Positions 25,399 to 26,306 of a stretch of 64,000 nucleotides of DNA are shown piece after piece. The stretch is from NCBI RefSeq assembly GCF_000027125.1, contig NC_017626.1; one strand, 5' to 3'. Made by a program: the position numbers and the translations under genes. The DNA is from Escherichia coli 042 (GTDB lineage Bacteria > Pseudomonadota > Gammaproteobacteria > Enterobacterales > Enterobacteriaceae). Each line of letters opens with the position of its first letter. Within the stretch, counting starts at the first letter, position 1. Under the pieces are notes generated by a model. That model was not told the origin of the DNA and did not search any database. It was given only the letters and a program-made list of their open reading frames with translations.

Positions 25399-26306
<908 letters not shown>

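What the first reader, a model, noticed from the sequence alone, without database searches (positions are those of the whole stretch)
25399..25405. Programmed -1 frameshift heptamer A_AAA_AAG joining OrfA and OrfB of the IS
Seven A residues followed by G (25398-25405) lie in the OrfA frame as gaA_AAA_AAG, and the OrfB frame is exactly -1 relative to OrfA and open from here to 26274. This is the arrangement used by IS3/IS150-family elements to make the OrfAB transposase, which suggests the copy is intact and potentially active rather than a decayed relic.
Basis: partly seen in the sequence, partly recalled or inferred. Interest (0 to 1): 0.35.

Follow-up and report, generated by a model that had tools for sequence, protein, structure and literature searches.

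The report
IS1397 transposase frameshift site, intact copy
The A_AAA_AAG run is the programmed -1 ribosomal frameshift site of an intact copy of the known E. coli insertion sequence IS1397, sitting in a REP palindrome; this is ordinary, except that the site lies 9 codons downstream of where related elements have it.

Summary
AAAAAAG at 25399-25405 lies in the OrfA frame as A_AAA_AAG. It sits inside the 109-nt OrfA/OrfB overlap, and the -1 frame is open from 25339 to 26274.

The element (24875-26306, 1432 bp) is IS1397, a described IS3-family element that RefSeq annotates with "programmed frameshift". It has 21/25 terminal inverted repeats (TG...CA) and a GTTC target duplication, and it is inserted in the loop of a REP palindrome, as IS1397 is known to do.

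A fusion made by slipping on the heptamer is identical to an NCBI IS1397 transposase. The catalytic D295, D355, E391 and K398 are intact and invariant in 63 distant relatives. Three of the four other E. coli copies I fetched carry disrupting deletions; this one carries none.

The site meets published criteria for stimulators: AGGAG 12 nt upstream and a 38-nt hairpin 4 nt downstream (-12.4 kcal/mol).

One nuance is new to me. In 55 diverged relatives plus IS150, ISKpn8 and two plasmid elements, the heptamer sits at "YL-KK-L", followed by a stem supported by covariation. IS1397 has lost that site and stem and uses a cassette 27 nt downstream.

Verdict: already known, ordinary, low interest. Frameshifting itself is inferred, not measured.

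The parts
24875..26306 (+). IS1397 (IS3 family), complete 1432-bp copy
   Evidence: 99.8% identical over full length to copies RefSeq labels IS1397. It is the only copy in the window.
24875..24899 (+). Left terminal inverted repeat (IRL), begins 5'-TG
   Evidence: 21/25 matches to the reverse complement of the right end.
26282..26306 (+). Right terminal inverted repeat (IRR), ends CA-3'
24871..24874 (.). Target-site duplication GTTC (left copy)
   Evidence: Identical GTTC at 26307-26310.
26307..26310 (.). Target-site duplication GTTC (right copy)
24859..24874 (.). Left half of the REP/PU palindrome split by the insertion (GCCGGATAAGGCGTTC)
   Evidence: Removing the IS and one GTTC restores GCCGGATAAGGCGTTCACGCCGCATCCGGC, which folds as a hairpin with the insertion point in the loop.
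26307..26324 (.). Right half of the split REP/PU palindrome (GTTCACGCCGCATCCGGC)
24926..25447 (+). orfA (173 aa, HTH DNA-binding protein); GAAGGTG ribosome-binding site 24913-19
   Evidence: Pfam HTH_28 at 9e-18, plus HTH_Tnp_1, HTH_29 and HTH_23. The exact protein is on at least 1000 contigs.
25339..25447 (+). orfA / -1 frame overlap window
25372..25378 (+). Vestigial canonical IS150-group slip position (G_AAA_GCC, ENAYL-K-A), no longer slippery
   Evidence: Aligns to columns 21-27 of A2, where 55 relatives, IS150 and ISKpn8 have AAAAAAG/A.
25383..25387 (+). [quoted passage not shown]
   Evidence: Meets the 6-17 nt criterion of PMC4066793. The relatives have GGAG at the same 12-nt spacing from their own site.
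25399..25405 (+). Slippery heptamer A_AAA_AAG in the orfA frame
25409..25446 (+). Predicted 38-nt stem-loop (putative downstream stimulator), starts 4 nt after the motif
   Evidence: dG -12.4 kcal/mol, or 0.326 kcal/mol/nt against 0.194 for neighbouring windows. It is in the top 2.2% of all 38-nt windows in the IS. The variant G25439A turns a U.G pair into U-A.
25405..26274 (+). orfB reading frame as entered after the -1 slip (HTH_21 + rve DDE catalytic core); D295, D355, E391, K398 of OrfAB
   Evidence: Pfam rve 3.8e-21, rve_2 1.4e-20, HTH_21 2.1e-17. The triad is invariant in 63 sequences. There is no ATG/GTG/TTG in this frame before 25552.

Best explanation
The window holds an intact copy of insertion sequence IS1397 (IS3 family, IS150 group) inserted in the loop of a REP/PU palindrome between srmB and the LysR-type gene yfiE. 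Ribosomes translating orfA mostly stop at 25445-47 and make a 173-aa HTH protein. A fraction pause with tRNA-Lys in the P and A sites on A_AAA_AAG (25399-25405) and slip back one base. They then continue in the -1 frame to 26274 and make the 449-aa OrfAB transposase (HTH + HTH_21 + DDE core, junction ...L-E-K-K-A-P-G...). The upstream AGGAG (pairing with 16S rRNA) and the downstream stem-loop 25409-25446 probably raise the slip frequency. Shown here: element identity, anatomy, frame relations, intact domains and catalytic residues, and conservation of motif and frame relation in relatives. Inferred: that slippage is ribosomal, its efficiency, and the stimulator roles.
For: Identity: 99.8% over 1432 bp to RefSeq IS1397 copies whose CDS is a 2-piece join noted 'programmed frameshift'. 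The fusion made by slipping anywhere in 25398-25405 equals WP_151276648.1. A join re-reading C25406 equals P0031, the common 'IS1397 family transposase'. Domains and DDE. The region between the heptamer and the first possible start codon in the -1 frame (25405-25551) encodes residues invariant across relatives of 49-56% identity (L174, Y196), so it must be translated, and only a frameshift reaches it. 62 of 66 diverged relatives with the -1 arrangement carry A_AAA_AAG/A in the orfA frame within the overlap. 72% of IS1/IS3-family heptamers are A_AAA_AAG/A, and biologically relevant -1 frameshifting has been demonstrated in the family (PMC4066793; PMC5009743). The stimulators meet published criteria. 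IRs, DR and REP target.
Against: There is no experimental measurement of frameshifting for IS1397 in anything I could read; the primary IS1397 papers are not held. The hairpin is modest (z = -2.1 for the 102-nt region) and starts only 4 nt after the motif, the lower edge of the accepted range. Its covariation cannot be tested because no diverged relative shares this site. The SD-like element could be a by-product of Q-E-H codons. No Rfam frameshift element matches.
Confidence: 0.9

Rival explanations
1. Transcriptional slippage: RNA polymerase stutters on the A7 run (25398-25404) and adds one A to a fraction of mRNAs, which then encode OrfAB in a single frame. The ribosome does not slip.
For: The run is 7 A's. 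The review PMC5009743 states that a substantial number of IS elements use transcriptional realignment instead of ribosomal frameshifting. Inserting one A would give the same K-K-A junction.
Against: The motif is in exactly the frame needed for tandem tRNA re-pairing and is followed by G (A_AAA_AAG). Relatives conserve the frame-specific heptamer rather than a longer run. They also conserve a downstream stem supported by covariation, which is a ribosomal stimulator. From my own knowledge, efficient slippage by E. coli RNA polymerase generally needs runs of about 9 or more.
Confidence: 0.05
2. The heptamer is incidental in this copy. OrfA and OrfB are made separately (OrfB from GTG 25552 or by coupling) and no fusion is produced, or the element is functionally dead despite intact ORFs.
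For: AAAAAAG alone occurs at chance frequency in the window. Lys-rich OrfA tails give an in-frame A_AAA_AAR in about 4% of random codon draws. The insertion is shared by 218 genomes, so it may be an old, vertically inherited and possibly quiescent copy.
Against: The 49 codons of the -1 frame between 25405 and 25551 have no ATG/GTG/TTG yet encode residues invariant in relatives. The motif and frame relation are conserved in 62 of 66 relatives. The element has multiple copies per genome (up to 40 places) in 1707 genomes with full-length copies, which requires a working transposase in the lineage. From my own knowledge of the family, IS3-family transposase activity resides in OrfAB.
Confidence: 0.04
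3. The productive slip occurs at a different place in the overlap, for example the tetramers A_AAA at 25423-26 or A_AAG at 25429-32, and the heptamer is secondary.
For: These in-frame tetramers exist and would also give open fusions. A_AA.G is the most shift-prone tetramer (PMC4066793).
Against: Heptamers are much more efficient than tetramers and are strongly preferred in the IS1 and IS3 families, 403 against 87. The SD-like element and the hairpin are positioned for the heptamer, and both tetramers lie inside the hairpin. The database proteins place the junction at the heptamer.
Confidence: 0.03

Closest known systems
IS1397 (IS3 family; E. coli REP/PU-specific insertion sequence, Bachellier 1997; Clement 1999; Wilde 2001, 2003, as cited in PMC1525189)
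   Same: 1432 bp at 99.8% nucleotide identity to RefSeq-labelled copies. The OrfAB product is identical to database IS1397 transposases. It is inserted in the loop of a REP/PU with a 4-bp duplication.
   Different: Nothing material. This copy differs from H1 at 3 nucleotides. It lies at the srmB-yfiE intergenic REP, a site shared by 218 of 5426 complete E. coli genomes.
IS150 (prototype of the IS150 group; -1 frameshifting on A_AAA_AAG with a downstream stem-loop, Vogele et al. 1991, cited in PMC4066793)
   Same: The same gene plan, the same heptamer, OrfB in -1, a similar IRL (TG.ACTGCACCC...TTGGAC), about 42% protein identity, and a DDE core.
   Different: The IS150 site is at Y-L-K-K-L with the stem GCCUUAGCUC/GAGCUAAGGC 6 nt downstream. 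IS1397 has G_AAA_GCC there and cannot form that stem. Its heptamer is 27 nt further on, with a different 38-nt hairpin.
E. coli dnaX and IS911 frameshift signals (A_AAA_AAG with an upstream SD-like element and a downstream structure)
   Same: The same heptamer. An SD-like AGGAG lies 12 nt upstream and a stem-loop lies downstream, giving a three-part signal (criteria from PMC4066793).
   Different: These systems are not homologous to IS1397. Stimulator function has been demonstrated for them but is only predicted here, and the IS1397 hairpin is weaker and closer to the motif.

Membership tests
IS3 family | Two partly overlapping ORFs, orfB in the -1 frame relative to orfA | tested here: met
   orfA 24926-25447; -1 frame open 25339-26274.
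IS3 family | Slippery motif (typically A_AAA_AAG/A) in the orfA frame within the overlap | tested here: met
   A_AAA_AAG at 25399-25405 is the only heptamer in the overlap.
IS3 family | DDE catalytic core (rve) with about 35 residues between the second D and E, and K/R 7 residues after E | tested here: met
   Pfam rve 3.8e-21. D295, D355, E391 (D-E distance 36) and K398 are all invariant in 63 sequences. There is no PDB sequence match to check against a structure.
IS3 family | Terminal inverted repeats ending 5'-TG...CA-3'; 3-4 bp target duplication; length about 1.2-1.55 kb | tested here: met
   IRs 21/25, TG...CA ends, GTTC/GTTC duplication, 1432 bp.
IS1397 | Near-identity to the named element (same-IS level, well above 90% nucleotide identity) | tested here: met
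   99.8% over 1432 bp to copies PGAP names IS1397, and the protein is identical to WP_151276648.1/P0031. It was not compared with the ISfinder reference itself, which is not available here.
IS1397 | Insertion into the central part of REP/palindromic units (PMC1525189 citing Clement 1999 and Wilde 2001, 2003) | tested here: met
   The empty site reconstructs a REP hairpin with the insertion in its loop. The same holds for 3 other copies.
IS150-group canonical frameshift cassette | Heptamer at the Y-L-K-K-L codons, followed 6-8 nt later by the GCCUUAG.../...CUAAGGC stem | tested here: not met
   IS1397 has GAAAGCC at the homologous columns 21-27 and pairs at only 3 of 11 stem positions. Its own motif is at columns 48-54.
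Programmed -1 ribosomal frameshift signal (criteria of Sharma et al. 2014, PMC4066793) | [quoted passage not shown] | tested here: met
   AGGAG at 25383-87 with a 12-nt gap. Function is not tested.
Programmed -1 ribosomal frameshift signal (criteria of Sharma et al. 2014, PMC4066793) | Hairpin of 17-140 nt starting 4-10 nt after the motif, G-C closing pair plus at least 3 pairs, dG_unfold of at least 7.6, and more stable than neighbouring windows (ddG/nt above 0.09) | tested here: met
   25409-25446: 38 nt, offset 4, -12.4 kcal/mol, ddG/nt 0.133.
Programmed -1 ribosomal frameshift signal | Evolutionary support (covariation) for the stimulatory structure of this element | tested here: inconclusive
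   No relative between 60% and 95% identity was found. The only informative change is U.G to U-A at 25439.
Programmed -1 ribosomal frameshift signal | Measured production of the trans-frame protein | not testable with these tools
   This needs a reporter assay or proteomics.

The most novel reading that the evidence does not exclude
In the IS1397 lineage the whole frameshift cassette moved. The ancestral IS150-group site (heptamer at Y-L-K-K-L, GGAG 12 nt upstream, stem of about 66 nt) was lost. A new A_AAA_AAG arose 27 nt (9 codons) downstream within the same overlap. It again has an SD-like AGGAG 12 nt upstream, and it has a new, shorter hairpin lying inside what was the loop and 3' arm of the old one. 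This would be a natural example of a recoding signal migrating along an overlap while the module architecture (SD, heptamer, stem) is rebuilt.
Probability: 0.65. Interest if true: 0.3.

Novelty: already known. Interest (0 to 1): 0.12.

Why it matters
For annotation, this locus should be called a single intact IS1397 with a programmed -1 frameshift, not two genes or a pseudogene. The insertion splits a REP element downstream of srmB. It is a lineage marker shared by about 4% of complete E. coli genomes. Biologically it adds little, because IS3-family frameshifting is textbook. The modest extra value has two parts. First, IS1397's frameshift cassette is displaced relative to the conserved position in the IS150 group, which could serve as a small natural experiment on how recoding signals are rebuilt. 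Second, most database IS1397 transposases carry a junction residue (Pro161) that comes from the annotation join rather than from the predicted slip, which gives Ala161.

Tried and rejected
1. The primary IS1397 papers (PMC94167, PMC95333, PMC169884) are not held, so any published frameshift data could not be read.

2. The search for intermediate relatives (60-95% identity) that might share the displaced site failed in four places. The search for homologous proteins returned only near-identical IS1397 variants. Genome contigs gave relatives of 58% identity or less, plus one deleted E. coli copy. Plasmid tblastn found nothing between 60% and 95%. The 50%-representative library gave 55% or less for full-length proteins. 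ISKpn1 was not identified by name.

3. Rfam has no frameshift-element match at the site.

4. phmmer against PDB found no solved homologue, so the DDE assignment rests on Pfam and conservation.

5. The sigma-70 consensus scan found no promoter in the element, so the orfA promoter is not located.

6. I considered that Pro161 in 109 of 129 database proteins might reflect a G25405C variant (A_AAA_AAC). I rejected this because it is reproduced exactly by a join re-reading C25406 on the same DNA.

7. The repeat finder missed the terminal IRs because of mismatches; they were found by direct comparison.

Full report
**Observation.** The sequence at 25398-25405 is AAAAAAAG. OrfA begins at ATG 24926, preceded by GAAGGTG, so GAA (25397-99), AAA (25400-02) and AAG (25403-05) are 0-frame codons. 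The -1 frame has a TGA at 25336-38 and is then open to 26274. OrfA ends at TGA 25445-47, which gives a 109-nt overlap containing the heptamer. There is no stop between 25405 and 25552. The bare string AAAAAAG is not enriched in the window: 18 matches against 15.2 +/- 3.6 expected. The evidence therefore lies in its frame and context. It is the only X_XXY_YYZ motif in the overlap. An in-frame A_AAA_AAR arises in about 4% of random draws of 37 OrfA codons.

**What it is.** The element runs 24875-26306 (1432 bp). Its ends are imperfect inverted repeats (21/25) beginning TG and ending CA, flanked by a direct GTTC/GTTC duplication. Megablast against 5426 complete E. coli genomes finds it in 3496 genomes, full-length in 1707, with up to 40 places per genome. 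The best hits are 99.8% identical and are annotated 'IS3-like element IS1397 family transposase'.

Removing the IS and one GTTC restores GCCGGATAAGGCGTTCACGCCGCATCCGGC. This is a REP/palindromic-unit hairpin with the insertion point in its loop. Three other IS1397 copies that I fetched are also in REP loops; one of them, with both flanks visible, has a GGCA duplication. This matches the published target specificity of IS1397 (PMC1525189). The left junction with srmB is present in 218 genomes, so this insertion is a shared lineage marker. The window itself is the E. coli glmY-rnc-rseC-srmB ... rrnG-pheL region.

**Proteins.** OrfA (173 aa) carries HTH_28, HTH_Tnp_1 and HTH_29 domains. The fusion (449 aa) adds HTH_21, rve (3.8e-21) and rve_2/rve_3. 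The fusion obtained by re-reading any base of 25398-25405 is identical to NCBI WP_151276648.1. Most database IS1397 transposases (109 of 129 sampled) have Pro instead of Ala at residue 161. This is not a DNA difference. It is reproduced exactly by placing the join one base later and re-reading C25406, and with that join the window copy equals P0031, a widespread product found on 71 contigs. A tandem slip on A_AAA_AAG predicts K-K-A.

The catalytic residues D295 (WVTDIT), D355 (HSDQG), E391 (MENFF) and K398 are invariant in an alignment of 63 OrfB sequences only 49-56% identical to IS1397. The same alignment shows invariant residues (L174, Y196) in the part of the -1 frame that lies upstream of the first possible ATG/GTG/TTG at 25552. 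That segment is therefore translated, and only a frameshift can reach it.

**Intactness.** Compared with a RefSeq copy, the window copy differs at 3 nucleotides and has no indels. Three other E. coli copies are damaged. One has a 1-nt deletion in orfA, one has a 5-nt deletion in orfB (both flagged as pseudogenes), and one has a 193-bp internal deletion that removes the frameshift region. 'Active' cannot be shown from sequence.

**Mechanism and stimulators.** In the IS1 and IS3 families, 72% of heptamers are A_AAA_AAG or A_AAA_AAA, and frameshifting sets the amount of OrfAB transposase (PMC4066793; PMC5009743). I applied the published stimulator criteria. [quoted passage not shown] Its stability per nucleotide is 0.326, against 0.194 for neighbouring windows. 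That gives a ddG of 0.133, above the 0.09 floor seen for IS3 members, and places it in the top 2.2% of all 38-nt windows in the element. The common E. coli variant G25439A changes a U.G pair to U-A. These features are consistent with a three-part signal, as in dnaX and IS911, but they are predictions. The 102-nt fold has z = -2.1 only, and Rfam has no matching frameshift element.

**Comparison with relatives.** A scan of one genome per species returned 80 loci at 39-58% identity from Bacillota, Pseudomonadota and others.
- 66 loci have OrfB in -1, and 62 of these carry A_AAA_AAG/A in the OrfA frame inside the overlap.
- In nearly all of them, and in IS150, ISKpn8 and two plasmid elements, the motif sits at the codons Y-L-K-K-L, usually with GGAG 12 nt upstream.
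- It is followed 6-8 nt later by a stem, GCCUUAGUUCA...UGAACUAAGGC. This is the IS150 stem-loop position.
- On alignment A2 the stem is paired in 89.9% of cells.
- 7 of its 11 pairs change on both sides, giving 47 compensatory cells against 10.7 +/- 6.2 in shuffles (0 of 500 reach the observed value).
- The slid controls pair only 18-47% of cells.

IS1397 aligns to these sequences without gaps, but it reads G_AAA_GCC (ENAYL-K-A) at the canonical position (25372-78). It has AGAA where the relatives have GGAG, and it cannot form the canonical stem. Its own heptamer is at alignment columns 48-54, exactly 27 nt downstream, and its hairpin occupies what is loop and part of the 3' arm in the relatives. 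No relative with the IS1397-type position was found, and no relative between 60% and 95% identity was found in any collection. I therefore read IS1397 as having a relocated frameshift cassette. This is an inference from the outgroup pattern, not a demonstrated history.

**Rivals.**
- Transcriptional slippage on the A7 run would give the same product. It does not explain the frame-specific conservation of the heptamer or the conserved ribosomal-type stimulators in relatives.
- Separate OrfA and OrfB without a fusion conflicts with the conserved, start-less N-terminal part of the -1 frame.
- Slipping at the downstream in-frame tetramers (25423-26, 25429-32) is possible as a minor route. Heptamers are far more efficient, and the stimulators are placed for the heptamer.

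**Verdict.** The feature is the known programmed -1 frameshift site of the known element IS1397, in an intact copy at a REP site. Novelty: already known. Interest is low. The only non-textbook point is the 27-nt displacement of the cassette relative to the IS150-group consensus.

Noticed in passing
window 25372-25378 vs 25399-25405; alignment A2: IS1397's slippery heptamer is 27 nt (9 codons) downstream of the position used by 55 diverged relatives, IS150, ISKpn8 and two plasmid elements. The canonical site, its GGAG and its covarying stem are all lost in IS1397.
   Followed up: yes
window 25405-25407 (junction codon); proteins P0001 vs P0031: 109 of 129 database IS1397 transposases have Pro161 where a slip on the heptamer predicts Ala161. 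The Pro comes from an annotation join that re-reads C25406, not from a DNA difference.
   Followed up: yes
window 24790-24874 and 26307-26324: The IS splits one REP of a BIME-like pair. A second REP (GCCTGATGCGCTACGCTTATCAGGC) lies at about 24792-24818. Rfam family ES036 (CssrF sRNA) matches 24812-24854 on the minus strand at 48 bits, above its gathering score, probably because that family is REP-derived.
   Followed up: partly
window 24747-24767 and 26359-26379: Two nearly identical GC-rich hairpins (CCGGGTTTAAGCCCGG[A/C]ATTA) lie just after srmB and just after the convergent yfiE, on either side of the IS. Both score as terminator-like.
   Followed up: no
L002, L003, L005, L013 (Pseudomonas asuensis); L041, L044 (P. 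oryzihabitans / P. rhizoryzae): These relatives encode OrfA and OrfB as one continuous ORF of about 460-474 aa with no frameshift and no A-run at the ENAYLK position. They are natural single-frame transposases within this clade.
   Followed up: partly
L039 (E. coli SCPM-O-B-8794), IS positions 469-661: This IS1397 copy has a 193-bp internal deletion that removes the frameshift region and puts the remaining orfB in frame with orfA.
   Followed up: partly
L087 (K. pneumoniae plasmid NZ_CP069863.1) about 760-775: This IS150-group relative has a canonical heptamer mutated to A_CAA_AAG (YLQKL), which leaves only an A_AAG tetramer. It is still annotated as a frameshifted transposase.
   Followed up: no
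L065, L069, L070: Three relatives with the -1 arrangement lack any in-frame heptamer. L065 and L069 read CTA AAG GAG at the canonical place, so only an A_AAG tetramer remains.
   Followed up: no
window 38054-43062 and elsewhere: Window context from Rfam and ARAGORN: an rRNA operon with tRNA-Glu (rrnG-like) on the minus strand, plus GlmY, rncO, AsrC, OhsC, RyfD and the Phe leader. This is an ordinary E. coli chromosomal neighbourhood.
   Followed up: no
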